Shown in pieces: positions 11,898 to 64,000 of a stretch of 64,000 nt of DNA. Origin of the DNA: Thermoanaerobaculia bacterium (GTDB taxonomy: Bacteria > Acidobacteriota > Thermoanaerobaculia > Multivoradales > Multivoraceae); the NCBI GenBank assembly GCA_022822365.1, contig JAJEBV010000015.1:157688-221687 (forward strand), given 5' to 3'. The notes under the pieces are model-generated. The model did not search any database. It saw only the letters and a program-made list of their open reading frames with translations, and was not told where the DNA came from. The position numbers were made by a program, and so were the translations under genes. Positions within the stretch are counted from its first letter, which is position 1. Every line of letters begins with the position of its first letter.

Positions 11898-13001
11898 CTA
11901 CGGCTCGAACCGTTCGACGTAGTTCTCCGGACCCTCGGCACGGATGTCGCTGAGCCAATCCCCTTCGTAGGGCCATGCTTCGGGATGGTCCTCGCTCGGG
12001 CCCTGCCAGAAGCGGGCGAACGGACCCTCGGCGCCACCTTCGAGGGACCAGGCCTGGCGGCGGAAGGACCAACTGTCAGGGACGAGGCGGTGCGCCTCGC
12101 GGAAGTGGCGGATCGCCGCCCCGTGATGACCCTCGAGCTCCAGGTGCGACGCGAGCTCGAAGTGGGCGTGTCCGAGGGACACGTCGGCATCGCGCGGCCG
12201 CGATCGTTCGACGACTTCTACCGGCGAGAGCGCGAATCGGCTCGCCGCGCCCTTCTCGACCCAATCGCGCAACGCCAGGTGGTAGGCGTCCGTGTCGGCG
12301 GGGATCTTCGCCGCCTCTTGCAGCATCTCGCCAAAGCGTCCCGGAATCCCGGTACCCGAACCCAAACGGGGCATCCCCTCCGTGCGCGGCGCCGGCGCGG
12401 CCTCCGGCGGCCGGACGATCGTGCCCGTTTCGTCGATCCACACCGAGCTGGGGATGTTGACCACGCCGAAGAGCCTGGCCAGCAGATGGTGCGGGTCAAC
12501 CAGCGACGGGTGTTTCGGCCTGGCGGCCTCGATGAAGCGGCGGCAGCCCTCGGCCCCCAGCGTGTCGAGGCCGACCGTGACCAGTTCGAACCCCTGCGGA
12601 TGAAGCTCCTCGCGTAGCGCCTGCCACCCGGGCAGGTGGGCCGAGCAGCCTCAGTAGGGGGCCCAGGCGTAGACGAGGACCTTCTGCCCGCGCAGGCTCG
12701 AGAGCCGAAACAGCTTCCCGTCCAGATCGGGCAGCTCGAAGTCGGCGTCCCCGGCCGACACCAGCGCTCGCGAGCCGATCGATTCGGGACCGACGGCCCA
12801 GACGCCGTGGTCCTCGTCGTGAACGACCGGCAGGCCGATGGCCTCGGCAACGGCAACCGCGTCCAACTGACCCGACGACGCCGGGGCACGGTCGAAGAGG
12901 GGCACGCAGGCCGAGCCCTTGCAGGCGCCCTCCGGCTTGAGCTGCCAGCCCGTACCGGTCTCGAACTCCGTCCTGGACACTGTCTTCTCTGTGAGGATCA
13001 T
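11898..13001 (-). CDS. Selenoprotein: ResA-like WAxxUGC thioredoxin-fold protein (in-frame UGA at 12651-12653)
   Basis: ORFs 12651-13067 and 11898-12464 are in the same frame. Reading through the TGA gives VLVYAWAPY-U-GCSAHLPGWQALREELHPQGFELVTVGLD, a continuous TlpA/ResA fold. A hairpin follows the UGA. Confidence 0.88.
12620..12636 (-). promoter_or_regulatory. Putative bacterial SECIS element
   Basis: mRNA CCUGCC-CGGGU-GGCAGG, a 6-bp stem at +15 to +31 after the UGA with a G-rich loop. Confidence 0.7.
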
Positions 13002-13058: not shown

Positions 13059-14195
13059 ATGTCCCACGCACCCTCTACTGGCCCCAGCGAACGGCCGCGG
13101 ATCGCCACCACGGCGGGCCTGCTAGTGCTCGCCGCGCTCGCCTTTCTCGTGGGCTCCCGCTGGCAGGGCAACGCGCTCCAGGCGGAAAGCCAGGGCGAGC
13201 CCCGGTCGGTTACGCCCAGTTCGGGGCTGCTCCCCGCGGAACGCGCAACGGTCAACCTGTTCCGCGAGACGCAGCCGTCGGTCGTCTACATCACGACCTT
13301 GAACCGCCAACGCCGGGTCGACTTTCTGGGACGTCGTTTCGACAGCGTCCAGGATGGCACGGGCAGCGGTTTCCTGTGGGACGACCGGGGCCACATCGTC
13401 ACGAACTTCCACGTCATCCGGAACGCCGACACCTACCAGGTCACCCTCCACGACCAGACGACGTGGCCCGCCACGTTCGTCGGACAGGACCCGGAGATGG
13501 ACCTCGCCGTGCTGCGGATCGACGCGCCCGCGGAGAAGCTGCGGCCGATCCCCGTCGGCTCGTCGAGCGACCTCCAGGTCGGCCAGTCCGTCCTCGCGAT
13601 CGGCAATCCCTTCGGCCTCGACTACACCCTGACGACCGGAGTGATCAGTGCCCTCGACCGGGAAGTCCAGTCGATCGGCGGACGCGAGCTCCAGGGCGTC
13701 ATCCAGACCGACGCAGCGATCAACCCCGGCAACTCCGGCGGCCCGCTTCTCGACTCGAGCGGCCGGCTGATCGGCGTGAACACGCAGATCGTGTCGTCCG
13801 GCGGCGCCTGGGCCGGCATCGGCTTCGCGATTCCGGTCGACACGGTGAACTGGGTCGTGCCGGAGCTGATCGCCCACGGCCGCGTCAACCGTCCGCAGCT
13901 CGGCGTCACCCTGGTGGACGGCGCCCGCTTGCGACCGCGAGTCGACGGCGTGTTGATTCTGGAAGTCGTCCGCAACTCCGGGGCCGACCGCGCCGGCTTG
14001 CGCGGCAGTCGGCGCACGCGCCAGGGCATCGTCCTCGGCGACGTGATCACCGCGATCGAGGGCCAACCCGTCCGCTCGGTCAGTGACATCCGGGCCCAGC
14101 TCGAGCGGCAACAGCCGGGCGACACGGTGACCGTGACCCTGCTCCGCGGCGAGGAGGAGACCGAGGCGAAAGTGCGCCTCTCCGCACCGCGCTAG
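13059..14195 (+). CDS. S1C serine protease with PDZ domain (DegP/HtrA family)
   Basis: VTNFHV (His), DLAVL (Asp), INPGNSGGPL (Ser), C-terminal PDZ, N-terminal TM helix. Confidence 0.93.
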   Translation: MSHAPSTGPSERPRIATTAGLLVLAALAFLVGSRWQGNALQAESQGEPRSVTPSSGLLPAERATVNLFRETQPSVVYITTLNRQRRVDFLGRRFDSVQDGTGSGFLWDDRGHIVTNFHVIRNADTYQVTLHDQTTWPATFVGQDPEMDLAVLRIDAPAEKLRPIPVGSSSDLQVGQSVLAIGNPFGLDYTLTTGVISALDREVQSIGGRELQGVIQTDAAINPGNSGGPLLDSSGRLIGVNTQIVSSGGAWAGIGFAIPVDTVNWVVPELIAHGRVNRPQLGVTLVDGARLRPRVDGVLILEVVRNSGADRAGLRGSRRTRQGIVLGDVITAIEGQPVRSVSDIRAQLERQQPGDTVTVTLLRGEEETEAKVRLSAPR

Positions 14196-48204: not shown

Positions 48205-48837
48205 TCAGAGGTCCGCGGAAGGCTCCGCGTTCCGGTCGAGATCGGGTAGCAGCGGCCGGCTCGTGTCGACATGGCCGGCGAAGGTCAGGCGCTGCTCCCC
48301 GTTCCACATCAGCACGACGCGCTCGATGCCCAGGTTGCTCGCGGTCAGACTGTTGACCAGGCTGTAGACGGCGAGCAGTTCCTCGCGCAAGCCCATCGCC
48401 GGCCGCTCGAAGCGCAGCGTGGAGCCGGTCCGCGCAACGGTCAGGTCGACGTAGGCGACGCCATTGACCAGGTCGAACGCCTGCAAGCCGACGTCGGGCG
48501 GCAGAACGGGGAACCTCTCCTCGTCCGCCTGCGGCGGGTCGTCGCCGGCGTGTGTCCGAGCGGTCGGACCGGGACCGTCGATCAGCGCCTGGACGATCAC
48601 CGCCGCCGTCTCCTCGACGCTGCCGGCGGCCGGGATCGCCCGCGGCTCGCAACGGAGCAGTCCGTCGGCGGTCGGGAAGCAGAGGGTCGCGAAGAAGTCC
48701 TCGCCCTCCGCGACGAGTTCCACTTCGCCGTCGACCGCGCCGTCGACGTCGCCGTCGCCGCATGCCCCAAGCACCACGAGCAGCGCGGGCAACAAGACGG
48801 CGGCGAGGGGCCAGAGGCTCGAACGCGGCCGGTTCAC
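48205..48837 (-). CDS. GerMN domain lipoprotein
   Basis: Lipobox [28 protein letters not shown]. Confidence 0.88.
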
Positions 48838-51777: not shown

Positions 51778-53307
51778 TCACTCCGCGAGCCGCCACCTCG
51801 GCGGCGCCACGAAACCGTCACGGCCTTCCCAGAAGATCGGCACATGCTCCTCCGGCTGCAGCGCCCGGAAGGCGAGCGCCTTCTCCGTCAGACGCTCGGC
51901 GATCTCCGGGTGCCCTGCTGACAGGTCGTTCTGCTCGCCGGGATCGTCTCCGAGGTGAAAGAGCATGGTCTGCGCTTCGGCGAGCGCCGCGCGGTCGAGC
52001 GGTTCGGGGCCGATGACGATCAGCTTCCAGTCCCCTTCCATCGCCATGAGCTGCTCGCGCTCGTTGCTCAATTGGGCGCACCAGGAGTAGAAGTCGCGGT
52101 CGCCGGCGACGTCGCCGCCCCGAAGCGCCGGCAGGGCATCGCGGCCGTCCAGTTCGAGATCGGGACGGTCGGAGACGGCCGCGGCCTCCATCAGCGTGGG
52201 CAACACGTCGAGGTAGTTGAGCGGCGCGCCGATCGAGCCGCCGCCGCTCACCCCGCCGGCAGGCCAGCGCGCCGCCGCCGCGACCCGGATGCCGCCTTCG
52301 AAGACGTTGCCCTTGGAACCCCGGAACGGCCGGTTGTCGCCGATGCCCGTGTCGCCGCCGTTGTCCGAGAAGAACCACACCAGTGTGTCGTCCGCCACGC
52401 CGGCCTCGTCGAGGGCATCGAGGATGCGGCCGATGCCGGCGTCCATCGCGTGCACCATCGCGCCGGTGATCCTGCGGTTCCGGAGACGGCCTTCCACGTC
52501 CTCGAGGCGCGCCCGGCTCATCGCGTGACCGCCGAACCACTCGTACTTCTCGGGCGGTACCCCCGCGCCGACGACCGCCTCGATCGGCACCGGCTCGAGG
52601 TCGGCATACCGCGGCAGATCCTCTTCCTTCGCCTGGAACGGCGAGTGCGGCGCGTTGTAGGGCACGAACAGGAAGAAGGGCGCGTCACCGTCGGCGTGCT
52701 CGCGAACGAAGCGCACCGCGTGCTCGGAGATCAGATCCGTGCTGTAGCCCGGCTCGTCGACCGACTCCTCGTCGTGGAACCAGTCGACCTCGCCGTAGCG
52801 CTCGTGCGTGAAGTAGTCGAAGCCCCAGCCGAGGTGGCCGACGAAACGCGTGAAGCCGCGCTCGAGGGGGTGGTACTCGCTGCGCGACAGACCCAGATGC
52901 CACTTGCCGACGAGGCCGCGCTGCTCGTAGCCGGCATCGGCGAGCACCTCCGGGATGAGAGTCGCCTCGGGATCGAGACCGTAGTCGTGGTACCCCATGA
53001 CGACGCCGCGCATCATCCCGTAACGGATCGGATGCCGGCCGGTCATCAGGCCGGCGCGAGTCGGCGAGCAGATCGGCGCCACGTAGAAGCGATCGAGCCT
53101 GACGCCCTCCGCGGCGATGCGGTCGATGTGGGGGGTGGCGATGTCGCCGCCGTTGAAGCTGACGTCGCGCCAGCCGAGGTCGTCGGCGACGATGAGCACG
53201 ACGTTGGGCGGCCGTTGCGCTCCCGCTTCCCCGGCCTCCTCGGCCGGCGTACAGCCGAGCAGGAGGATGACCGTCGCGAGCACGATCCCGTGTTCCGTCC
53301 TCATCAC
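51778..53307 (-). CDS. Arylsulfatase, lipoprotein
   Basis: LLGC lipobox, ADDLGW, CSPTRAGLMTG, GKWHLG, SDNGG. Confidence 0.93.
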   Translation of the reverse strand: MMRTEHGIVLATVILLLGCTPAEEAGEAGAQRPPNVVLIVADDLGWRDVSFNGGDIATPHIDRIAAEGVRLDRFYVAPICSPTRAGLMTGRHPIRYGMMRGVVMGYHDYGLDPEATLIPEVLADAGYEQRGLVGKWHLGLSRSEYHPLERGFTRFVGHLGWGFDYFTHERYGEVDWFHDEESVDEPGYSTDLISEHAVRFVREHADGDAPFFLFVPYNAPHSPFQAKEEDLPRYADLEPVPIEAVVGAGVPPEKYEWFGGHAMSRARLEDVEGRLRNRRITGAMVHAMDAGIGRILDALDEAGVADDTLVWFFSDNGGDTGIGDNRPFRGSKGNVFEGGIRVAAAARWPAGGVSGGGSIGAPLNYLDVLPTLMEAAAVSDRPDLELDGRDALPALRGGDVAGDRDFYSWCAQLSNEREQLMAMEGDWKLIVIGPEPLDRAALAEAQTMLFHLGDDPGEQNDLSAGHPEIAERLTEKALAFRALQPEEHVPIFWEGRDGFVAPPRWRLAE

Positions 53308-55780: not shown

Positions 55781-56470
55781 TCAAGCCGCCGTCAGATCGA
55801 TGGGCTCCTGCTTCACGATCTTCCGGCAGATCGTGAGGCACGGCTGAAAGCTGTCCCGCCCTGTCAAGCGCTCAACGAGGCCGGCCACTCCGGGCCACCG
55901 CGACGCGTCGAGCGGACCGGCGACGAACTCGAACTGCGCGATCTGACACGCGAGCGAGATATCCGCGATCGTCAGCGCGTCTCCCACCAGGAACGGCTCG
56001 TCGCCGACTTCGCCCTCGAGATAGTCGAGACGCCGTGGAAGCCGCTCCTCGTACGTCTTCCTGGCCGTGTCGACGTCGGGCTCCTTGCCCATGAAGCGGT
56101 TGAACTGGATCGGGCGGAAGATCCCGAGGCCGATCGCCATCGCCAGCTCGGTGTCGCAGTACTCCTCCAGCCAGACCGCGCGACCGCGTTCGTAGGGGTC
56201 CGCCGGATAGAACGCGGGCTCCGGGAACTTCTGCTCGACGTAGGCGCAGATCGCCGACGAATCGGGGATCGTGCCAGGCGGACCTTCCTCGCCGACGTCC
56301 GTGTCGCGCAACACCGGAATCCGACGGGCCGGACTGATCTCCTTGAACCAGTCGGGCATCGGCATGATGTTCACGCTCTCCAGCTCGAAGGGCGCGCCCT
56401 TCTCGCGCAGCAGGACATCCGCCTTTCGAACGAAAGGAGAGAGGGGGGCTCCGTAGAGGATGAGGCCCAT
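55781..56470 (-). CDS. Glutathione S-transferase family protein
   Basis: SPFVRK, SPARRIPVL, DSSAICAY, LTIADI. Confidence 0.9.
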   Translation of the reverse strand: MGLILYGAPLSPFVRKADVLLREKGAPFELESVNIMPMPDWFKEISPARRIPVLRDTDVGEEGPPGTIPDSSAICAYVEQKFPEPAFYPADPYERGRAVWLEEYCDTELAMAIGLGIFRPIQFNRFMGKEPDVDTARKTYEERLPRRLDYLEGEVGDEPFLVGDALTIADISLACQIAQFEFVAGPLDASRWPGVAGLVERLTGRDSFQPCLTICRKIVKQEPIDLTAA

Positions 56471-56481
56471 CCTGGCGGCGC

Positions 56482-57687
56482 CTAGCGCCCCGGCATCACC
56501 AGCGGTTCGATCGGCACTTCGATCGTGACGGTCTCTTCCTTCGGCACGTAGCAGACCGTCTCGCTGCAGGCCTGGTAGACGACGTCGACCGGAATCTCGA
56601 TCGAGGTCGGCTTGTCCTGAATCGGCCAGTTGAGAATCTCGGCGTTCAGCGCGATCGGGATGGCGATGTCGGTCACGCCTTCCTCGTAGACGTTGAGCGT
56701 CACGTCGAGCTGGGGGAACTCACGCTTACGGGTCGCCGGGTAGACCGGCTCGCCCAGCCGCACGCCCTTGGTCGGCACGACGGTCGCCGTCGATGCGATG
56801 AAACCGTCGGGCAGGGGGTCGGCGTAGATGTGGTAGCCGTCGGCGACGTCGAAGCGCACATGGAGGGTGCTCGAGTACTCGAACTTGAGCGCCTCGTCGG
56901 CGAGGAAGACGGACACCTCGACGTGCTCGTCGCCCAGTTCGGCGGTCGGCGCCTCGTGCTTGGCGAGGATGCGGCCGATCGCGCTGTCGCGAATCGTCCC
57001 GGCCGACGTGCGCGTCGCGTAGTGGCGGTGGAAGAACTTCTCCGTCACGCGGCCCTCACCGTCGGTGACGTAGACGCCAGGGAAGGGAATGCCGTAGAAG
57101 CCCCGCTCGGTGGCGCGGTTGAACACATCCGAGTCGGGGTCGATCGTCGTGTTCAGGATGCCGAAGCGCTTGATGACTTCCGAGTCGTAGTCGGAGAGCA
57201 GGTCATAAGAGATGTCCTTGCTGTCGGCGAAGGCCTTCAGATGCTGCTCCGAGTCGTAGCTGACGCCATAAACCTTGATGCCCTCGGCGTCGAAGAGCGA
57301 GATGTTCTCTTGCAGCTCGACCAGCTGCGTGCGGCAGTACGGTCACCAGACGGCGGAGCGGTAGAAGACCACGATGGCCTTCGAGTCGCCCCGGTCCGCG
57401 TGGAAGTCGACGAGTTCGCCGTTCTGGTTCGGCAGCTCGAACTCGGGCAGGCGCTCGCCGATCGCGGGACCGGTCGGGAACTCGTGGTCCGCCGGATAGC
57501 GCCGTCCCGGGTGGCTCGTCGGAATGGGCACCGTGATGCCGAGGTCGTCCTGCCGTGCCTCCGGCGACTGGTTCTCGTGAGCGCCCTTCACTCTCTCATT
57601 CTCGTTCCCGGCGCCGTCCTGGGCGAAGGCCGGAACGGCGAAGAGCAGCGGGACAAGGGCGAGCAAGGCGAATCGGCCTGTCTTCAT
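56482..57687 (-). CDS. Exported selenoprotein: AhpC/TSA-type UxxC domain fused to a DsbD N-terminal-like domain (in-frame UGA at 57343-57345)
   Basis: ORFs 57343-57687 and 56482-57126 are in the same frame. Read-through gives FYRSAVW-U-PYCRTQLVELQE...VYGVSYD...LLSD...FG, then HIYADP...YQACSETVCYVP. Confidence 0.88.
57312..57328 (-). promoter_or_regulatory. Putative bacterial SECIS element
   Basis: mRNA GCAGCU-GGUCG-AGCUGC, a 6-bp stem at +15 to +31 after the UGA. Confidence 0.7.
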
Positions 57688-57705
57688 GGGTCGAACGCTC
57701 CCTCT
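57684..57705 (-). repeat. 22-nt direct repeat copy B (leader and start of the selenoprotein gene)
   Basis: Identical to 55724-55745. Confidence 0.9.
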
Positions 57706-57830: not shown

Positions 57831-59495
57831 ATGAGACGACGCTCCGGAGTGACTCGACGCGGTCTGGTCGGCCTCGGTCTCGCGATTGTCCTCGCGGGAG
57901 GCGCCGCGGGCGCGGCTGCCTACCGGCAGGGCACGACCCAACTCGCGCAGCAGCAGCCCGCCATCGGTCCGACCCAGACGATCGACTGGCAGTCGGGCGC
58001 CGACCCCATGGGCCGACCCGCCGCGGAGAGGCCGCCCAACATCGTCGTCATCCTCGCCGACGACCTGGGCTGGAACGACCTGAGCTGGCTCGGCGGCGGA
58101 GTCGCTGGCGGCACGGTGCCGACCCCGAACATCGACTCGCTGGCCCGCGATGGCGTCCACTTCGCCAACGGCTACTCGGCCAACGGCACCTGCGCTCCGT
58201 CGCGGGCCGCCCTGATGACGGGCCGCTACGGCACCCGCTTCGGTTTCGAGTTCACGCCGACGCCGGACGGATTCGCCACGATGGTGCCCCGGCTCTCGAA
58301 CCGGGAAGGCCGGCTCCGGCAGACGAGCGCCAACGAGGAAGCGTCTTCGGTTCCGTTCGCGGACAAGGGGATGCCGCCCTCCGAGATCACGCTCGCCGAG
58401 CTGCTCAAGCCGGCCGGCTACCACACCGTGCACATCGGCAAGTGGCACCTCGGCGGGGCCGACGGCATGCGAGCCCACGAGCAGGGCTTCGACGAGAGCC
58501 TGCTCATGAGGAGCGGCCTGTACCTGCCCGAGGACGACCCGAACGTCGTCAACTCGAAGCAGGAGTTCGACGGCATCGACCGCTTCCTGTGGCGCTTCTC
58601 GCGCTTCGAGGCTTCGTTCAACGACAGCCCAGCCTTCGAACCCGGCGGGTACCTGACCGACTACTACACCGACCAGGCGGTTCAGGTGATCGAGGCGAAC
58701 AAGGACCGGCCCTTCCTTCTCTACCTGGCGCACTGGGCGGTGCATACGCCGCTCCAGGCGCTGCGCGCCGACTACGAGGCGCTGTACCACATCGAGGAGC
58801 ATCGCCTGCGGGTCTACGCCGCGATGGTCCGCTCGCTCGACCGCAGCGTCGGCCGGGTGCTCGAGGCGCTGCGCGAGAACGGCCTCGAAGAGAACACGCT
58901 CGTCTTCTTCACCTCCGACAACGGGGCGCCGGCCTACATCGGCCTGCCGCGCGTCAACGAGCCGTTCCGGGGCTGGAAGATCAGCTTCTTCGAGGGAGGC
59001 ATCCACGTGCCCTACCTCCTGAAGTGGCCGGCCCGTCTCAGCGGAGGTCAGGTCTACGAAGCTCCCGTGCACGGCTTCGACATCTTCTCGACCGCGGCGG
59101 CCGCGGCGGGCGTCGACCTGCCCGGCGACCGGAAGATGGACGGAGTCGACCTGGTGCCGCACGTCCTGGGCAAGGCCGAGGGCCCGCCGCACGACCGTCT
59201 CTTCTGGCGCACCGGCGGCTATCAGGTCGTCCTCGCCGACGGCTGGAAACTCCAGATCAGCGATCCGCCCGGGAGAGCATGGCTCTTCAACATGGAGAAG
59301 GATCCCACCGAGCAGCACAACCTCGCCGACACCGAGCCGGAGCGGGTCGCGGCCCTGAAGAAGCTCCTCGCCGAGCACAACAAAGAGCAGGCGACGCCGA
59401 TCTGGCCGTGGGCCACCCGAAGCCCGATCAACATCGACAAGACGCTGCTCGATCCGGACGCGCCGGACGACGAGTACATCTACTGGTACAACTGA
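57831..59495 (+). CDS. Sulfatase with Tat-like leader
   Basis: TRRGL, ADDLGW, CAPSRAALMTG, GKWHLG, SDNG. Start moved to ATG 57831. Confidence 0.92.
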   Translation: MRRRSGVTRRGLVGLGLAIVLAGGAAGAAAYRQGTTQLAQQQPAIGPTQTIDWQSGADPMGRPAAERPPNIVVILADDLGWNDLSWLGGGVAGGTVPTPNIDSLARDGVHFANGYSANGTCAPSRAALMTGRYGTRFGFEFTPTPDGFATMVPRLSNREGRLRQTSANEEASSVPFADKGMPPSEITLAELLKPAGYHTVHIGKWHLGGADGMRAHEQGFDESLLMRSGLYLPEDDPNVVNSKQEFDGIDRFLWRFSRFEASFNDSPAFEPGGYLTDYYTDQAVQVIEANKDRPFLLYLAHWAVHTPLQALRADYEALYHIEEHRLRVYAAMVRSLDRSVGRVLEALRENGLEENTLVFFTSDNGAPAYIGLPRVNEPFRGWKISFFEGGIHVPYLLKWPARLSGGQVYEAPVHGFDIFSTAAAAAGVDLPGDRKMDGVDLVPHVLGKAEGPPHDRLFWRTGGYQVVLADGWKLQISDPPGRAWLFNMEKDPTEQHNLADTEPERVAALKKLLAEHNKEQATPIWPWATRSPINIDKTLLDPDAPDDEYIYWYN

Positions 59496-59555: not shown

Positions 59556-60587
59556 CTAATCGTCGCCGTCACCAGCCTTCAGCACGTGGACGAGGAAGTC
59601 GACCGCCTGCTGGTTGTAGATGGACGGAGTCGCCGTCGGGAGCTTGCCACTCGCCTTGTACTCGTCCGCCTGCTTCTTGTTCCGGAAGTTGTAGGCAGAG
59701 TAGTCCCGGTTGCTCTTGAGATCGTTTTCCCGGATAGCAGCCCAGATCTGGTTCTGCTTCGCTCCTGACGCCTCCTGCACGGCCTGAGCGAGCTCCATCG
59801 CCGAGAGAGGATACTCACGGATGAGGTTCTCTCGGACCCGCTTCACGATCTCGACCTTGTCGATCGGGCGCACGTCGCCGACGAGCTTGAGTGTCGGTGC
59901 ACCGAAGCGTTCCTCAAAATCTCCCTCTTTGATGAAACGCAGCTTGCTCGCCAACTGGTCCTCAACTACGAGGACCTGGGCATCATGCTTCCGTATCAAA
60001 GCCCGCTCGGTATCGAGCACGGCCGCGTTACCTGGACCCGCGGCTCCGATCTTCTGGACCAAGTCGAGCCACTCCTGGTTGTTCCGCTCGATCCGCCGAT
60101 CGATGATCCTCTCGAGTTCCCCGTACTGAACTCGCTGCGTTCGGCCGCCGTAGCGATAGTAGATCTCGCCGTTCTTGATCTCCGGCCCCTTACCTGCGTC
60201 CTTCTTCGCAACCACGGGCTTCTGTCCCGCAGGGCTCACCCGGAAGACACCGAACACCCTCCCTTCTATCTCGAAGCTGGCCTGTTCCCAGTCAACCGAG
60301 GGGGAGAAGTAGTCCAGCAGGTACCCGCTGATCCTCTCCGGATCGATCTTCTCGAACTGGTCTCGCGCGGAGTCCGACAACCCGGCTGGGATTCTTGGCG
60401 AGTCCGTAACGCCAAACACGAGATAGCCGCCGCGGTTGTTGGCAAAGCCCGCGAAGTCACGAAAGTACTCGGCGAGGCCAGCAAGATTGAACTGCTCCTT
60501 GAACTCCAGCTCTTGGCTTTCTCGGTGAAAGAGCCGGCCGTCGGGCTTCACTCGGAGCACTTCACGGATGTGGTCAGGGTCGATCAA
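59556..60587 (-). CDS. Schlafen/AlbA_2 domain protein with an uncharacterised C-terminal region
   Basis: RESQELEFKE, AGFANNRGGYLVFGVTD, YYRYGG. Confidence 0.85.
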   Translation of the reverse strand: MIDPDHIREVLRVKPDGRLFHRESQELEFKEQFNLAGLAEYFRDFAGFANNRGGYLVFGVTDSPRIPAGLSDSARDQFEKIDPERISGYLLDYFSPSVDWEQASFEIEGRVFGVFRVSPAGQKPVVAKKDAGKGPEIKNGEIYYRYGGRTQRVQYGELERIIDRRIERNNQEWLDLVQKIGAAGPGNAAVLDTERALIRKHDAQVLVVEDQLASKLRFIKEGDFEERFGAPTLKLVGDVRPIDKVEIVKRVRENLIREYPLSAMELAQAVQEASGAKQNQIWAAIRENDLKSNRDYSAYNFRNKKQADEYKASGKLPTATPSIYNQQAVDFLVHVLKAGDGDD

Positions 60588-60661
60588 GGACTAGCGAGAG
60601 GTCGAGGAGTTGTTGAAGTGAATCACGCGGCGAACCCTCTTGGGTGCTCAACGTGAACCGT

Positions 60662-61618
60662 TCACCGTGGACCGCCCCCGATCTTCCGCATTCCCATCAG
60701 TTCAACCGGCGTTCCAACGAGGTCGAAATCACTCGGAGGCTCCTGGGCGTACTGCTTCCACCGATGTCTGTACTGCTGTTCCGACAGCAGGGTGATGTCG
60801 TCGGTTGCACCGGCATCGCCGGTGTCGAGGCCAGCTCCGAACTGAATGCCGCAGAGTTCGGTCAGCACATACCGGTTGTGCATTTGGTCGCGGCCGTTCT
60901 TACGCTCGAGCCGCCGGACAACGACCCTTAGGCCCTCCGGGACGCGTCGGGGGAGCTTCTCCTTGCATGCGTCACGAAAGTACTCGTGGGTGCCCCGATT
61001 ACGGGAAAAGTCGGTGAGGATGGTGAGTTGCTCTGGTGGAAGACCCGGTCTGCTGCGCGACATGCGCTCGCAGAAGCTCTCGAGCACTTCCAGGTTCTCG
61101 GATCGCTTCGGTCGGAAATAGGGGTCCACGAGGACAATGCGCTTGCTCAGTCGGAGTGTCGAAGCGATGGCGTCAGCCATTGCTTCCGCCCGCCTGTCGA
61201 CGACGACGCCCCGCGTCACCTGCCAAAGCGGGTCGTCGTCGATGTCGTCGTGGAGCAGAACGGCCGCGTGCCCTCCCGGATTCGAGCCAGCGACGATCGC
61301 GCGAAAGGGACAGCGTTCGTGTTCTCGTAGCGCGCTGGCTAGCCAATCGACGTTCGTGCCCGGCTTCCGCTCGGCGTCCGACCGATCGATCATCCGGCGC
61401 TTGAGCTTGCGAAGGAGCAGCTTCAACTGAGTCCTACGTCGCGTGCTCCCTGCGTACTCAGATTCGTTGAAGGCGTCCAGTACGTCGTTGCGCCATTGGG
61501 CCGGCCAGCGGGACACGACCCGTCCACCGTCCATCGAGAACTGGCTCCTGTAGTAGCGAGCCTGGTCTTCGGTCCATGTGCCAACCAGGCGGGGCTCCAA
61601 CGCAAACTCCCGGATCAT
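60662..61618 (-). CDS. Hypothetical protein with a PLD-like C-terminal domain (nuclease candidate)
   Basis: IVLVDPYF and HNRYVLT...GAGLD resemble DPY / H(D/N)R / GLD motifs of divergent PLD-fold domains; 2 nt from the ATPase stop. Confidence 0.7.
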   Translation of the reverse strand: MIREFALEPRLVGTWTEDQARYYRSQFSMDGGRVVSRWPAQWRNDVLDAFNESEYAGSTRRRTQLKLLLRKLKRRMIDRSDAERKPGTNVDWLASALREHERCPFRAIVAGSNPGGHAAVLLHDDIDDDPLWQVTRGVVVDRRAEAMADAIASTLRLSKRIVLVDPYFRPKRSENLEVLESFCERMSRSRPGLPPEQLTILTDFSRNRGTHEYFRDACKEKLPRRVPEGLRVVVRRLERKNGRDQMHNRYVLTELCGIQFGAGLDTGDAGATDDITLLSEQQYRHRWKQYAQEPPSDFDLVGTPVELMGMRKIGGGPR

Positions 61619-61620
61619 CC

Positions 61621-63420
61621 TCAGAACAGTTCCTCTTCGCGCTCGTCAAAGAACCCATCCGGCCAAGGGTGTTCGAAGTCGCCGTCCGGCGTGGTGGGCA
61701 GGTGGACGATCTCGGCCCCGTCAGGGCCCGGCTGGATGTACAAAACGGCGACATCCTCCGGGCAAACCGCCGGCTTGCCGTCCAGTTCGCCGTCTGTCGT
61801 CTCCCGGATGCGACGCAGGATGCGGAGAATCAGATGCTCGCTATGCGTCTCGATAAGGAATCGGTTGCCGGACTCGCCTAGTGCCGACTCAAGAAACACG
61901 TCCCCAAGTTCCGCCTGAAGGGCCGGATGCAGGTGGATTTCGGGCTGCTCGATGGCGATCAGTTTGGCAGAAGATGCGTACGCCGACACCAGCACTGGAA
62001 GCACCTGACTCACGCCGAATCCCACGTCGCGGTGGCTGACAGGAGTGGTGGAGCGCTTGGCTATCAGCACCAAGTCTTGATGGGCCTCGCCGCGCGACAC
62101 GACTTCCGCAACGATCTCACGGACCCATTCGTCCGCGACGACGTCGGCGTCGACAATGGCGTCCACGACTTCTCCGACAGCCAGCAACGTCTCGTCGAGA
62201 GCCCCGCTCTCGACGTCTGGCCCCAAGTCCGCGTGCTGGCGGATCAGATCCAGCACCGAAGCAAGCTCGGCCGACAGCGGGCCGTCGCGCTCCGTTTGTT
62301 CGAGCACAGATAGCGCGAGTTCGTAGAGCTTGGGACCGAGCCTCTTCGCCAAGGGAGCGTCAAGGACGTCGGCGGGGAGCAGATCTCGAAGCCGGAGTTC
62401 GTAAGGCGTCTTGAGATCTCCCAGCCATCGGTTCACTCGATCCCTGATGTCGCTCCGACTTCGGACGACGTCCCACGCCCAGCCGCCTCCGGCAATCCAG
62501 TTCGGGTCGTGGTGTTGGGGGGACATCAGACTCCGGGGTGGATACGACCGGAGGGGCCCCAGGTAGAGCAGCCTGCGGATCTCCTCTTCCAGCACCTCGG
62601 AGAGGCCGCCCAGCAGCTCGCGCAACACATCCGGCAGCAAGTGCCGCGCTGCCTGGGCCAGGTTCTCCTGCCTGTAGCCGCGGCCGATCGGCCGGAAGGT
62701 GCTCTCGGTTGCAACCTGCTCGGTACGCAGAAACATGCCGCCACTCCGTCTAACGGCGATCTGCGGCACGAGTTGATCCACGACTTCGGCGAAAGTGGCC
62801 AGATCCTCATCCTGGAGGTCTTGAGCGGTGGTTGAGAACTCCAAGACCCCTCGAAACGCCTCGCGGAAGACCGGGTGTGAATGGTCGGCGCGGTCCAACT
62901 GGAGGCCCGCGCCCCGACGGACGCTCAGAGCGAGCAGCTCCCGACCGTCGGCACCAACCGCGAAACGCTGGGCTCCGACCTGGCCGTCCCGGTAGGCGCC
63001 TTCCATGCCGACGCCAACCTCAACCTCCACCCTTTGCGCCGAGCCCAGAATCTCCGCCAATCTCCCTGAGAGCTTGGCCGGATCCAGCGCGAAAGTCAGG
63101 GTCACCTCCTCGTCCACCCGCCGACGATGCACGTACTGCCCGAAACCTCCCAAGTCGATGGAGTCTCCTCCTAGGCGTGTCCGGTGGACGTCCAAGTCGC
63201 CGGTCTCGACCGCGTGGTGGGCGAGAGCCAAGGCATGAAGGACGCTCGACTTGCCGGCGCTGTTGGCGCCGAAGAGGAGCGTCAGGGGCCGCAGCGGCAC
63301 GCGCTGCGATTGCCCGAACGCCTTGAAGTTGGCGACGCGAAGGGAGTTGAAGGCGCTCAAGATTCCGTACCTGAGGTCGCCCACGGGGGCCGGAAGTCGC
63401 GACTCCATGCCAGGAGGCAA
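61621..63420 (-). CDS. ABC/SMC-type AAA_21 ATPase with C-terminal DUF3696
   Basis: NFKAF, GANSAGKS (Walker A), DVGFGVSQVLP, IEQPEIHLHP, IETHSEH, WPDGFFDE. Start uncertain. Confidence 0.9.
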   Translation of the reverse strand: MPPGMESRLPAPVGDLRYGILSAFNSLRVANFKAFGQSQRVPLRPLTLLFGANSAGKSSVLHALALAHHAVETGDLDVHRTRLGGDSIDLGGFGQYVHRRRVDEEVTLTFALDPAKLSGRLAEILGSAQRVEVEVGVGMEGAYRDGQVGAQRFAVGADGRELLALSVRRGAGLQLDRADHSHPVFREAFRGVLEFSTTAQDLQDEDLATFAEVVDQLVPQIAVRRSGGMFLRTEQVATESTFRPIGRGYRQENLAQAARHLLPDVLRELLGGLSEVLEEEIRRLLYLGPLRSYPPRSLMSPQHHDPNWIAGGGWAWDVVRSRSDIRDRVNRWLGDLKTPYELRLRDLLPADVLDAPLAKRLGPKLYELALSVLEQTERDGPLSAELASVLDLIRQHADLGPDVESGALDETLLAVGEVVDAIVDADVVADEWVREIVAEVVSRGEAHQDLVLIAKRSTTPVSHRDVGFGVSQVLPVLVSAYASSAKLIAIEQPEIHLHPALQAELGDVFLESALGESGNRFLIETHSEHLILRILRRIRETTDGELDGKPAVCPEDVAVLYIQPGPDGAEIVHLPTTPDGDFEHPWPDGFFDEREEELF

Positions 63421-63441
63421 CGAGCAACCAGTGAACGGTGG

Positions 63442-64000
63442 TCACGACTCATCGAGACCCCCATCGCCGACCCGTTCGTGGGCAGCCAGCAAGTACTGGA
63501 TGTAGGTCCGGATGAGGTCGCAGAAGAGTCGAGCCTCGTGCTCCTCAATGTCCGCAGGGTCGGCGATGTCCGTTCCGTGGCGAATGCCGCCACCTGTTGG
63601 CGACGAGAGGTAACCGTAAAGTCCCATGGCCCATCCGAGAACCTGCTCGAGGGCGCCCCCCTTGTGGATCCTGCGAAGGTCATGCACGATCTGGCTGAAG
63701 TACTTGCCTTCGACGGAACCGGAGGACGTGGCCATTCCCTTGAAGGCCGTCGCTACGGTCTCCATCAGCCAGAGAACCTCCTGAACGGCCTGCCGGTAAC
63801 TCCCGTCGTTCAAGAGCCTCTCTGAGTTCTGGAGGGAGCGTTGGATCAGCGCGTTCGTTCTCTCGCTGGCCGTTGGGGCCGAGACGGCGACGGGCTCGAC
63901 ACCAACCGTCGCTCGGATGATCTTGGGCGGATCAACTTGGAATCCCGTCCCGTGCTGACGCAGCACGCGATTGACATCCGGCACACTGGCCACTGGGGCA
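63442..64000 (-). CDS. AbiJ-like / HEPN-type C-terminal domain protein (5' end off the window)
   Basis: The frame stays open to the window edge; LYGYLSSPTGGGIRHG...EARLF...YIQYL resembles AbiJ C-terminal domains. Confidence 0.6.
   Translation of the reverse strand, partial: APVASVPDVNRVLRQHGTGFQVDPPKIIRATVGVEPVAVSAPTASERTNALIQRSLQNSERLLNDGSYRQAVQEVLWLMETVATAFKGMATSSGSVEGKYFSQIVHDLRRIHKGGALEQVLGWAMGLYGYLSSPTGGGIRHGTDIADPADIEEHEARLFCDLIRTYIQYLLAAHERVGDGGLDES

What the first reader, a model, noticed from the sequence alone, without database searches (positions are those of the whole stretch)
56482..57687. Exported selenoprotein fusing a UxxC thioredoxin-fold domain to a DsbD-alpha-like domain
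Seen: signal peptide, W-U-P-Y-C active site created by an in-frame UGA, uninterrupted coding downstream, and C-terminal YQACSETVCY. Established: DsbD N-terminal domains use a YQxC-x4-5-CY disulfide to pass electrons to periplasmic thioredoxin-like proteins. Inference: a single-chain periplasmic Sec-to-Cys redox relay that pipelines would split into two genes.
Basis: partly seen in the sequence, partly recalled or inferred. Interest (0 to 1): 0.72.

Follow-up and report, generated by a model that had tools for sequence, protein, structure and literature searches.

The report
Exported Prx-like/DsbD-alpha fusion selenoprotein gene
This is a real gene for an exported two-domain redox protein that uses selenocysteine, which gene callers cut in two at its UGA codon. 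This type of fusion was already reported from ocean metagenomes in 2021, so it is a well-supported new member of a known kind.

Summary
It lies on the minus strand, at 57687..56482.

**What the gene is**
- One 401-codon reading frame encodes a signal peptide, an AhpC/TSA (Prx/TlpA-like) thioredoxin-fold domain with W-U-P-Y-C, and a C-terminal DsbD-alpha-type domain (PF11412) with YQACSETVCY.
- The in-frame UGA is at 57345..57343.

**Evidence that the UGA encodes selenocysteine**
- TGA sits at this codon in 79 of 79 related Acidobacteriota genomes.
- Full-length relatives carry Cys at the same position.
- A 6-bp stem with a 5-nt loop (GGUCG) starts 14 nt after the UGA. Its synonymous sites are frozen and it shows two compensatory pair changes.
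- Both halves are under purifying selection.
- TGA is otherwise a normal stop in this window.
- The window holds a second, curated selenoprotein gene (WAxxUGC, NF041054) whose hairpin has the same geometry.

Gene callers do split the gene, into a 114-aa and a 214-aa product.

**Novelty and mechanism**
- The fusion "Prx-like U/CxxC + Pfam11412" was already reported from GOS metagenomes (PMC9402790, 2021).
- UxxC Prx-like selenoproteins have been known since 2004.
- The proposed Sec-to-Cys relay is plausible, by analogy with ScsB/DsbD alpha domains reducing TlpA and Prx-like proteins. Its direction, electron donor and substrate are untested, and no partner gene is linked.

The parts
56482..57687 (-). 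Complete coding sequence of the selenoprotein: 401 codons including UGA-115, ending in a TAG stop at 56482-56484.
   Evidence: Translation. Pfam domains span the UGA. tblastn matches to query residues 1-401 in relatives. dN/dS is 0.09-0.13 before the UGA and 0.16-0.38 after it.
57698..57704 (-). Shine-Dalgarno-like GAGGGAG, 10 nt upstream of the ATG.
   Evidence: Sequence read. No such motif precedes the pipeline-called internal GTG start at 57126.
57622..57687 (-). Sec-type signal peptide, residues 1-22 (MKTGRFALLALVPLLFAVPAFA|QD). There is no lipobox Cys and no twin-arginine motif.
   Evidence: Read from the sequence. A comparable hydrophobic h-region is found in 68 of 79 pre-UGA ORFs of relatives. 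No signal-peptide predictor was available.
57040..57462 (-). AhpC/TSA (Prx/TlpA-like) thioredoxin-fold domain, residues 76-216.
   Evidence: Pfam PF00578 E 1.2e-27 and PF08534 E 3.1e-14. Best PDB sequence hits are BCP/PrxQ/AhpE/ResA. Foldseek of the Cys-homologue model gives BCP, AhpE, PrxQ and ResA with TMt 0.75-0.80.
57343..57345 (-). UGA codon 115, read as selenocysteine: the first residue of the U-P-Y-C redox motif.
   Evidence: TGA in 79/79 loci and in L087 and L088. Cys is at this position in P0016, P0129, P0140, P0142, P0200, P0206, P0228, P0264 and P0268.
57334..57336 (-). Cys118, the resolving partner in UxxC. It aligns with the peroxidatic Cys of BCP-type peroxiredoxins.
   Evidence: HMMER alignment to 2cx3. 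Invariant in all loci.
57312..57328 (-). Bacterial SECIS-type hairpin GCAGCU-GGUCG-AGCUGC: a 6-bp stem and 5-nt loop, starting 14 nt after the UGA.
   Evidence: Third-position entropy is about 0.16 bit over codons +5..+11, against about 1.1 bit over codons -10..-2. All cells are paired in 34 distinct sequences, and 2 pairs have changes on both sides; 1 of 500 shuffles reaches this. Hairpin dG is -10.4 kcal/mol. The WAxxUGC gene in this window has the same geometry.
56974..57042 (-). Strongly conserved segment EKFFHRHYATRTSAGTIRDSAIG (residues 216-238) between the two domains. Its role is unknown.
   Evidence: Invariant K217, F219, R221, Y223, R226 and G238. Low model confidence in the homologue model.
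56485..56970 (-). C-terminal Ig-like DsbD-alpha/ScsB-alpha-type domain (residues 240-401; Pfam match residues 270-389).
   Evidence: PF11412 scores 48.3 bits against a cutoff of 25. AlphaFold2 pLDDT 93, pTM 0.87. The top 11 Foldseek PDB hits are ScsB-alpha 6c29 and nDsbD structures.
56551..56568 (-). C374-S-E-T-V-C379 (C-x4-C), the second redox centre, within YQACSETVCY.
   Evidence: Both Cys are invariant across the family. A domain-only profile aligns them to the YQGC-ADAGF-CY catalytic pair of E. coli nDsbD.

Best explanation
The region holds one gene, not two. It encodes an exported (periplasmic) two-domain selenol/thiol-disulfide oxidoreductase of a sponge-associated Acidobacteriota bacterium (Thermoanaerobaculia, 'Ca. 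Multivorans').

**Shown**
- UGA-115 is recoded as selenocysteine with the help of a SECIS hairpin that lies inside the coding sequence, 14 nt downstream.
- The N-terminal domain is a Prx/TlpA-like thioredoxin fold with a U115-P-Y-C118 centre. Sec occupies the attacking N-terminal position of a CxxC-type motif, where true peroxiredoxins have Thr/Ser.
- The C-terminal domain is an Ig-like DsbD-alpha/ScsB-alpha-type domain. Its C374-x4-C379 pair corresponds to the catalytic pair of nDsbD.

**Inferred**
- The two centres exchange reducing equivalents through a transient Sec115-Cys selenosulfide, within one chain or between chains. This mirrors how DsbD/ScsB alpha domains do it with TlpA, CcmG, DsbC and Prx-like proteins.
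- The most likely polarity is: cytoplasmic thioredoxin, then a DsbD/ScsB/CcdA-type membrane transporter encoded elsewhere, then the alpha-like domain, then the UxxC domain, then a periplasmic oxidised substrate (a disulfide, sulfenate or peroxide).
- On this reading Sec is at the 'business end', giving fast exchange and resistance to over-oxidation.
For: **Single gene, Sec recoding**
- Pfam domains span the UGA.
- TGA is conserved in 79/79 loci, and also in L087 and L088.
- Cys homologues exist.
- About 90% of the 150 best 50%-identity representatives are truncated just after the Sec site.
- The hairpin has suppressed synonymous variation and two compensatory changes.
- dN/dS is well below 1 on both sides of the UGA.
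- TGA is the genuine stop of 24 of 49 ORFs in the window.
- The same window holds a curated selenoprotein gene, NF041054 (494 bits against a cutoff of 300), with a hairpin of the same spacing and size.
- Acidobacteria are known selenoprotein users (PMC1794560).
- A Shine-Dalgarno motif precedes the true ATG only.
- A metatranscriptome contig spans the whole gene.

**Domains**
- for the N-terminal domain; for the C-terminal domain.

**Relay and polarity (by analogy)**
- The ScsB alpha domain keeps TlpA (which in turn reduces PprX) and the non-peroxidase Prx-like protein PrxL reduced in the Caulobacter envelope (PMC3322552).
- The best structural match of the C-terminal domain is ScsB-alpha.
Against: - No experiment exists for any member of this family.
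- The Sec machinery genes (selA, selB, selC, selD) could not be looked for in the source genome. None are in the window or in the 1.1 Mb of fetched loci.
- No DsbD/CcdA/ScsB gene, or any other partner, is conserved next to the gene in any lineage.
- The full-length model does not place the two domains confidently (pTM 0.46), so contact between the two centres is not shown.
- An alpha-type domain normally needs a gamma-type thioredoxin donor, which this protein lacks. That leaves room for the opposite polarity.
- The Cys loop is one residue shorter than in nDsbD, and TM-scores to nDsbD are only 0.4-0.6.
Confidence: 0.62

Rival explanations
1. Same protein, opposite polarity: a soluble 'gamma-alpha' module of a split DsbD. 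A CcdA-type membrane protein reduces the ResA/TlpA-like UxxC domain directly, as CcdA does with ResA. That domain then reduces the fused alpha-like domain, which acts as the output hub for several periplasmic thioredoxin-fold clients.
For: - The N-terminal domain belongs to the same Pfam families as the CcdA clients ResA and TlpA, and matches ResA structures.
- In DsbD itself a thioredoxin-fold domain (gamma) reduces alpha; 1vrs is among the structural matches.
- The protein has no gamma donor of its own, and no substrate-specific features are evident.
Against: - Sec is usually found at the substrate-facing centre.
- Overall, the domain is closer in sequence to BCP/PrxQ than to ResA or DsbD-gamma.
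- Known flow between alpha domains and Prx-like/TlpA-like proteins is alpha to Trx-fold (PMC3322552).
- No ccdA gene is linked.
Confidence: 0.25
2. The two domains do not form a relay. The UxxC domain works alone, for example as a GPx-like Sec peroxidase or a disulfide reductase or isomerase. The PF11412 domain is a structural, substrate-binding or independently acting 'isomerase-like' module. This is how PMC9402790 read it: 'DsbC' domain, cysteines 'without clear function'.
For: - The literature reading.
- Some relatives have SxxC or WxxC instead of U/CxxC yet keep the C-x4-C pair (P0147, P0261, P0205). So the C-terminal centre can persist without a dithiol or selenothiol partner.
Against: - In solved structures, PF11412 domains match only the electron-transfer alpha domains of DsbD/ScsB.
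- The Cys pair is invariant and aligns with the catalytic pair.
- Fusion of two redox centres that are known to interact in trans elsewhere is most simply explained by interaction.
- The canonical Prx motif is not conserved: Ser in place of Pro, and Sec in place of Thr.
Confidence: 0.1
3. The UGA is not selenocysteine. Either it is a true stop (two genes or a pseudogene), or it is read by another route, such as the nonsense-suppressing allo-tRNAs described in Acidobacteria, or Trp/Cys near-cognate read-through.
For: - Sec machinery was not found in the sequence held.
- Allo-tRNAs with possible suppressor function exist in Acidobacteria (PMC5389517).
- One relative has TGG (Trp) at the site (P0205).
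- Folding the 81-nt stretch as a whole is no better than shuffles (z-score +0.39).
Against: - TGA is conserved in 79/79 loci, with strong purifying selection on both sides.
- The Pfam domain is only complete across the UGA.
- The hairpin is at SECIS distance, with frozen synonymous sites and compensatory changes.
- In the Cys form the 5-nt loop is lost.
- A curated selenoprotein family member with the same hairpin geometry is in the same window.
- TGA is the commonest ordinary stop here.
Confidence: 0.03

Closest known systems
Prx-like protein (U/CxxC) fused with Pfam11412 ('DsbC' domain), predicted from GOS marine metagenomes (Xu et al. 2021, PMC9402790, Fig. 2D)
   Same: Same two Pfam domains in the same order, the same U/CxxC motif, and extra conserved cysteines in the PF11412 part. 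Both are computational predictions only.
   Different: That report is one sentence and a figure panel. It reads the domain as a disulfide isomerase and gives no SECIS, taxonomy or mechanism. Here the member comes from a sponge-associated Acidobacteriota genome. The SECIS is defined, and the domain is shown to be DsbD/ScsB-alpha-like with aligned catalytic cysteines.
Prx-like thiol:disulfide oxidoreductase selenoproteins (PF00578, UxxC; Kryukov & Gladyshev 2004; Geobacter, Syntrophus, Desulfotalea; PMC1088965, PMC1794560, PMC13188914 Table 1)
   Same: AhpC/TSA scaffold with a thioredoxin-like UxxC in place of the peroxiredoxin TxxC/TxxU. Function is uncharacterised.
   Different: The present family carries a C-terminal DsbD-alpha-type domain and a signal peptide. 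I could not check whether the classic deltaproteobacterial representatives have that domain, because their sequences cannot be fetched here.
DsbD / ScsB alpha domains and their periplasmic clients (TlpA to PprX, PrxL, ScsC, CcmG, DsbC; PMC3322552)
   Same: Ig-like alpha domain with a YQxC...C catalytic pair that exchanges electrons with thioredoxin-fold and Prx-like proteins in the cell envelope.
   Different: In those systems the alpha domain is the N-terminus of a three-domain membrane protein and the client is a separate polypeptide with Cys. Here alpha is C-terminal and soluble. It is fused to the client-like domain, which uses Sec, and there is no beta (membrane) or gamma domain.
ResA-like WAxxUGC motif selenoprotein (NCBIfam NF041054), present in this same window at 11898-13001 (-)
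   Same: An AhpC/TSA-fold protein with Sec in the active-site motif. Its SECIS hairpin has the same spacing (14 nt) and size (6-bp stem, 5-nt loop).
   Different: Its motif is U-G-C (one intervening residue). It has a different C-terminal extension (weak TPR-like matches) and no PF11412 domain. It has a curated model, whereas the target family has none above cutoff.

Membership tests
Bacterial selenoprotein gene (SelB/SECIS-dependent UGA recoding) | In-frame UGA conserved among orthologues, with coding conservation on both sides | tested here: met
   TGA in 79/79 loci, plus L087 and L088. dN/dS is 0.09-0.38 on both sides.
Bacterial selenoprotein gene (SelB/SECIS-dependent UGA recoding) | Homologues with Cys at the aligned position | tested here: met
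   WCSYC or WCP[YF]C in P0016, P0129, P0140, P0142, P0200, P0206, P0228, P0264 and P0268.
Bacterial selenoprotein gene (SelB/SECIS-dependent UGA recoding) | Stem-loop shortly downstream of the UGA with G/U in the apical loop, under selection at the RNA level | tested here: met
   UGA + 14 nt + a 6-bp stem with a GGUCG loop. All cells paired, 2 compensatory pairs, 1/500 shuffles. Synonymous-site entropy drops over the hairpin. The loop resembles the GGUC loop of E. coli fdhF (from memory, not tested). No Rfam family matched.
Bacterial selenoprotein gene (SelB/SECIS-dependent UGA recoding) | selA, selB, selC (tRNA-Sec) and selD present in the genome | not testable with these tools
Indirect support: a curated selenoprotein (NF041054) in the same window.
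Bacterial selenoprotein gene (SelB/SECIS-dependent UGA recoding) | Selenium actually incorporated (75Se labelling or MS) | not testable with these tools
   An experiment is needed.
Prx-like U/CxxC + PF11412 fusion selenoprotein (PMC9402790) | AhpC/TSA-type Prx-like domain with a U/CxxC motif | tested here: met
   PF00578 E 1.2e-27; motif W-U-P-Y-C.
Prx-like U/CxxC + PF11412 fusion selenoprotein (PMC9402790) | PF11412 domain fused C-terminally, with additional conserved cysteines | tested here: met
   PF11412 scores 48.3 bits against a cutoff of 25. C374 and C379 are invariant.
DsbD/ScsB alpha domain | Ig-like beta-sandwich fold resembling nDsbD/ScsB-alpha | tested here: met
   Model pLDDT 93. 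The top 11 Foldseek hits are 6c29, 1l6p, 1vrs, 1jpe, 1z5y, 1jzd, 3pfu and 5nhi, with E 8.5e-6 to 2.9e-4 and TM 0.40-0.60.
DsbD/ScsB alpha domain | Catalytic Cys pair in the YQxC...CY motif | tested here: met
   The profile alignment places C374 and C379 on the YQGC-ADAGF-CY pair of E. coli nDsbD. The loop is one residue shorter.
DsbD / ScsB protein (full electron transporter) | Three-domain alpha-beta-gamma architecture with a transmembrane beta domain | tested here: not met
   No DsbD transmembrane or gamma-domain Pfam hit. The protein is soluble beyond its signal peptide, and the alpha-type domain is C-terminal. It is therefore not a DsbD; it only carries an alpha-type domain.
Catalytic peroxiredoxin (BCP/PrxQ type) | PxxxT/SxxC active-site motif with a peroxidatic Cys | tested here: not met
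   Alignment to BCP 2cx3 puts S112 on the conserved Pro and U115 on the conserved Thr/Ser. Only C118 matches the peroxidatic Cys. All NCBIfam peroxiredoxin models score far below cutoff.

The most novel reading that the evidence does not exclude
The protein is a self-contained soluble 'gamma-alpha' hub of a split DsbD system. A Sec-containing ResA/Prx-like domain takes electrons directly from a CcdA-type membrane protein and passes them to its own fused alpha domain, which then serves several periplasmic clients. That would be a new architecture for delivering reducing power to the cell envelope, with selenium in the carrier rather than in the end enzyme.
Probability: 0.2. Interest if true: 0.6.

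Novelty: new member of a known kind. Interest (0 to 1): 0.3.

Why it matters
**Annotation.** The family is mis-annotated almost everywhere. About 90% of its representatives in public protein sets are C-terminal fragments, paired with an orphan upstream 'hypothetical' ORF, and no NCBIfam model covers it. The SECIS and motif defined here (SAVW-U-PYCRTQLVELQ; UGA + 14 nt + GCAGCU-GGUCG-AGCUGC) would let pipelines repair several hundred genes in Acidobacteriota and some other phyla.

**Biology.** It is a natural covalent fusion of an alpha-type electron-transfer domain with a Sec-containing client-like domain. That offers a convenient one-chain model for studying selenosulfide/disulfide exchange in the oxidising cell envelope. 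It also hints at selenium-dependent envelope redox defence in sponge and marine-sediment Acidobacteriota.

**Limits.** It does not open a new category. Both the UxxC Prx-like selenoproteins and this particular fusion have been reported.

Tried and rejected
- **Rfam on the whole window:** only three tRNAs, no SECIS family and no tRNA-Sec. Bacterial SECIS elements are poorly covered there, so this carries little weight.
- **Folding 81 nt around the UGA as one piece:** energy no better than shuffles (z +0.39). The hairpin only emerged from the comparative analysis.
- **Sec machinery:** ARAGORN on the window and 80 loci found no tRNA-Sec. tblastn with E. coli SelD and SelA, written from memory as probes, found nothing in about 1.1 Mb.
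- **Conserved gene neighbours:** clustering ORFs of 81 loci found only the two halves of the gene itself shared across lineages. Frequent neighbours are lineage-specific: ABC permease, amidase, an FdhE-like protein, PQQ dehydrogenase. Contexts of the distant members P0016, P0085 and P0071 showed no CcdA/DsbD. None appeared in the annotated parts of the window either.
- **Tool restrictions:** I used the Cys homologue P0016 and the window's own C-terminal domain instead.
- **Full-length P0016 model:** two good domains but an unreliable relative placement (pLDDT 68, pTM 0.46), so it says nothing about contact between the two redox centres.
- **Rejected readings:** genome-wide TGA reassignment, because TGA ends 24 of 49 ORFs; and a canonical peroxiredoxin, because the motif is not met.
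Full report
**Observation.** The feature lies on the minus strand. Translating 57687..56482 gives 401 codons:
- a typical Sec-type signal peptide, MKTGRFALLALVPLLFAVPAFA|QD;
- a variable spacer;
- ...KAIVVFYRSAVW-*-PYCRTQLVELQ..., with a single in-frame TGA at codon 115 (57345..57343);
- 286 further sense codons;
- ...VDVVYQACSETVCYVPKE... near the C-terminus, and a TAG stop.

With Cys in place of the stop, Pfam finds AhpC/TSA (PF00578, E 1.2e-27, residues 76-216, i.e. across the TGA), Redoxin, and DsbD_N (PF11412, E 1.2e-12, 48 bits against a cutoff of 25, residues 270-389). No NCBIfam model reaches its cutoff.

**Is the UGA decoded?**

*Truncated homologues.* A search of 5.8 billion proteins returned 327 homologues. 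Nearly all are 230-285-residue C-terminal fragments, many starting at 'MTQLVELQ', directly after the UxxC motif. P0016 (395 aa) is full length and has WCSYC.

*Conservation of the TGA.* A scan of 185,579 species genomes gave 160 relatives. The best 80 are all Acidobacteriota MAGs (Thermoanaerobaculia/'Ca. Multivorans', Vicinamibacterales, Bryobacterales, Holophagales), and tblastn alignments run through the stop. In all 79 loci that cover the site the codon is TGA, within VVF[YF]RSxVW-U-PYCRTQLVEL. The same holds in two more distant lineages, L087 and L088.

*Sec versus Cys forms.* An exhaustive profile search of 1.84 billion cluster representatives found 173 relatives at E<=1e-30. Among the best 150, roughly nine in ten begin within about 16 residues after the Sec site. 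About a dozen are full length. Those I read carry Cys (eight), Ser (two) or Trp (one) at the position.

*Selection and stop usage.* Nei-Gojobori estimates against seven relatives give dN/dS of 0.09-0.13 for the 55 codons before the UGA (six of the seven; synonymous sites are saturated in L077) and 0.16-0.38 after it. Neither half is decaying. TGA ends 24 of 49 ORFs in the window, so it is not reassigned genome-wide.

**SECIS.** Fourteen nucleotides after the UGA lies GCAGCU-GGUCG-AGCUGC, a 6-bp stem with a 5-nt loop (57328..57312; dG -10.4 kcal/mol).
- Third-codon-position entropy is about 1.1 bit over codons -10..-2 but about 0.16 bit over codons +5..+11, exactly over the hairpin.
- In 34 distinct sequences every cell of the six pairs is a standard pair.
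- Two pairs change on both sides: G-C to A-U in L078, and G-C to U-A in L088. The L088 change comes with an extra C-G pair and costs a Gln-to-Ser substitution. Only 1 of 500 shuffles reaches this, and slid registers give at most 37% pairing.
- Bryobacterales change the loop to AGUUG and keep the GU.
- The Cys form (L085/L086) retains a stem but has closed the loop to 3 nt, a vestigial element.
- The loop resembles the GGUC loop of the E. coli fdhF SECIS. That comparison is from my own knowledge and was not tested.

**Does this genome use Sec?**
- No tRNA-Sec, selA or selD is in the window or in the roughly 1.1 Mb of fetched loci. The rest of the genome could not be reached.
- I scanned the window for in-frame TGAs flanked by coding-like composition and found three: the target; a trivial case of two adjacent genes in the same frame (48205-48207); and 12651-12653 (-), in ...VLVYAWAPY-U-GCSAHLP....
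- Read through, that third ORF matches the curated selenoprotein family NF041054, 'ResA-like WAxxUGC motif-containing protein'. The match is end to end (E 2e-148, 494 bits against a cutoff of 300).
- Its UGA is followed, after the same 14 nt, by a 6-bp stem with a 5-nt loop, CCUGCC-CGGGU-GGCAGG. Two selenoprotein genes with the same SECIS geometry in one 64-kb window is good indirect evidence for the trait.
- Acidobacteria are listed among Sec-using phyla (PMC1794560).

**Gene model and expression.**
- In four independent assemblies the gene is called as a 114-aa product with no Pfam hit plus a 214-aa 'DsbD_N' product, with a 216-nt gap between them. Distant Sec forms show the same orphan upstream ORF.
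- A Shine-Dalgarno-like GAGGGAG precedes the true ATG. Nothing comparable precedes the internal GTG.
- The sequence occurs in sponge and marine metagenomes.
- A 1,525-nt contig from a marine metatranscriptome, about 95% identical, covers 56300-57679. It spans the UGA, the 'gap' and the start of the downstream GST gene, which begins 11 nt after the stop. DNA carry-over cannot be excluded.

**Domains.**

*N-terminal domain.*
- Its best PDB sequence matches are BCP/PrxQ, AhpE, ResA and CcmG.
- The model of the Cys homologue matches BCP, AhpE, PrxQ and ResA with TMt 0.75-0.80.
- In the alignment to BCP, C118 falls on the peroxidatic Cys, U115 on the conserved Thr/Ser, and S112 on the conserved Pro of PxxxT/SxxC.
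- This is therefore a CxxC-type (thioredoxin/TlpA-like) centre in a Prx scaffold, not a canonical peroxiredoxin.

*C-terminal domain.*
- The window's own sequence with a 49-sequence alignment folds with pLDDT 93 and pTM 0.87 into a beta-sandwich.
- Its eleven best PDB matches are the ScsB alpha domain (6c29, E 8.5e-6, TMq 0.58) and E. coli nDsbD structures, including its complexes with DsbC, CcmG and cDsbD.
- A domain-only profile hits nothing in the PDB except DsbD alpha. It aligns C374 and C379 with the YQGC-ADAGF-CY catalytic pair, with a loop one residue shorter. Both cysteines are invariant.

*Linker.* The segment EKFFHRHYATRxSAGTIRDSAxG between the domains is strikingly conserved, and its role is unexplained.

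**Mechanism.**

*Shown.* This is an exported protein with two redox centres of types known to exchange electrons with each other in trans.

*Inferred.* The two centres form an intramolecular or intermolecular relay through a Sec-Cys selenosulfide.

*Precedent.* In Caulobacter, the alpha domain of ScsB keeps three kinds of protein reduced: TlpA (which reduces the peroxiredoxin PprX), the non-peroxidase Prx-like protein PrxL, and ScsC (PMC3322552).

*Preferred polarity (about 0.6).* Membrane transporter, then the alpha-like domain, then the UxxC domain, then substrate.

*Reverse polarity (about 0.25).* CcdA, then the UxxC domain, then the alpha-like domain, then clients: a soluble gamma-alpha module of a split DsbD.

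*Gaps.* The donor and the substrate are unknown. No partner gene is conserved nearby. ORF clustering over 81 loci found only the two halves of the gene shared across lineages.

**Comparison with what is known.**
- UxxC 'Prx-like' selenoproteins have been known since 2004-2005 (PMC1088965; PMC1794560; Table 1 of PMC13188914).
[quoted passage not shown] 2D). PF11412 is the domain now named DsbD_N.
- The architecture is therefore not new.
- What this analysis adds: the taxonomic centre of the family (Acidobacteriota), the near-universal use of Sec in it, a defined SECIS, the identification of the C-terminal domain as an electron-transfer alpha domain rather than an isomerase, and the extent of mis-annotation.

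**Verdict.** Novelty is that of a new member of a known kind, and interest is modest (0.30).

Noticed in passing
window 11898-13001 (-), TGA at 12651-12653: A second selenoprotein gene, ...VLVYAWAPY-U-GCSAHLP.... Read through, it matches NCBIfam NF041054 'ResA-like WAxxUGC motif-containing protein' end to end (494 bits, cutoff 300). Its SECIS-like hairpin CCUGCC-CGGGU-GGCAGG also starts 14 nt after the UGA. A plain ORF list splits it into a 138-aa ORF plus a downstream fragment.
   Followed up: yes
L085/L086 (Cys-form P0016), around locus position 1751 / 537: The Cys (TGT) form keeps the amino acids TQLVELQ and a stem (GCAGCUC-GUC-GAGCUGC) but has lost the 5-nt loop. This looks like a fossil SECIS and suggests a Sec-to-Cys conversion.
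   Followed up: partly
P0205, P0147, P0261, P0161 (family representatives): A few full-length relatives have Trp (SWWPFC), Ser (SxxC) or CxxS at the active-site motif while keeping the C-terminal C-x4-C pair. The Trp case could be a TGA-to-TGG change.
   Followed up: no
L025 and L027 (same MAG IP29b_bin.170); L047 and L065 (same MAG CB27_Tmax.120); P0138: Some genomes carry two paralogues, both with TGA. One 616-aa representative (P0138) is a tandem duplication of the two-domain unit. Its first copy is truncated at the Sec site, and its second copy has SxxC.
   Followed up: no
16 Vicinamibacterales loci, e.g. L066 7250-8143 (+): An FdhE-like protein with four CxxC motifs lies directly downstream of the selenoprotein gene in this order only. 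FdhE normally accompanies formate dehydrogenase, which is often a selenoenzyme.
   Followed up: no
window 55781-56470 (-): A glutathione S-transferase gene starts 11 nt after the selenoprotein's stop codon and is covered by the same metatranscriptome contig, so the two are probably co-transcribed. The linkage is limited to the 'Ca. Multivorans'-like genomes (16 loci).
   Followed up: partly
window 59556-63993 (-) and beyond (L081 1-7571): Probable defence island: a Schlafen/AlbA_2 protein, two proteins with no family match, and an AAA_15/AAA_21 ATPase matching PADLOC NsnB/PDC-M55A/AriA/OLD-like models. A type I restriction-modification system (HsdM, HsdS) follows just outside the window.
   Followed up: partly
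window 51778-53307 (-), 57831-59495 (+): Two sulfatase genes flank the region, next to homogentisate 1,2-dioxygenase and a glyoxalase/dioxygenase-family gene. This fits the sponge-symbiont origin of the sequence (sponge metagenome runs hold it at 100%).
   Followed up: partly
window 13059-14195 (+): A DegP/MucD-like trypsin-PDZ protease is divergently placed next to the WAxxUGC selenoprotein gene. MucD-PDZ proteins with CxxC/U are another selenoprotein fusion listed in PMC9402790. This copy is an uninterrupted ORF, and I did not check it for the motif.
   Followed up: no
window 56974-57042 (-), residues 216-238: The segment EKFFHRHYATRTSAGTIRDSAIG between the two domains is among the most conserved parts of the protein (K217, F219, R221, Y223, R226 and G238 invariant) but is modelled with low confidence. 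Its role is unexplained.
   Followed up: no
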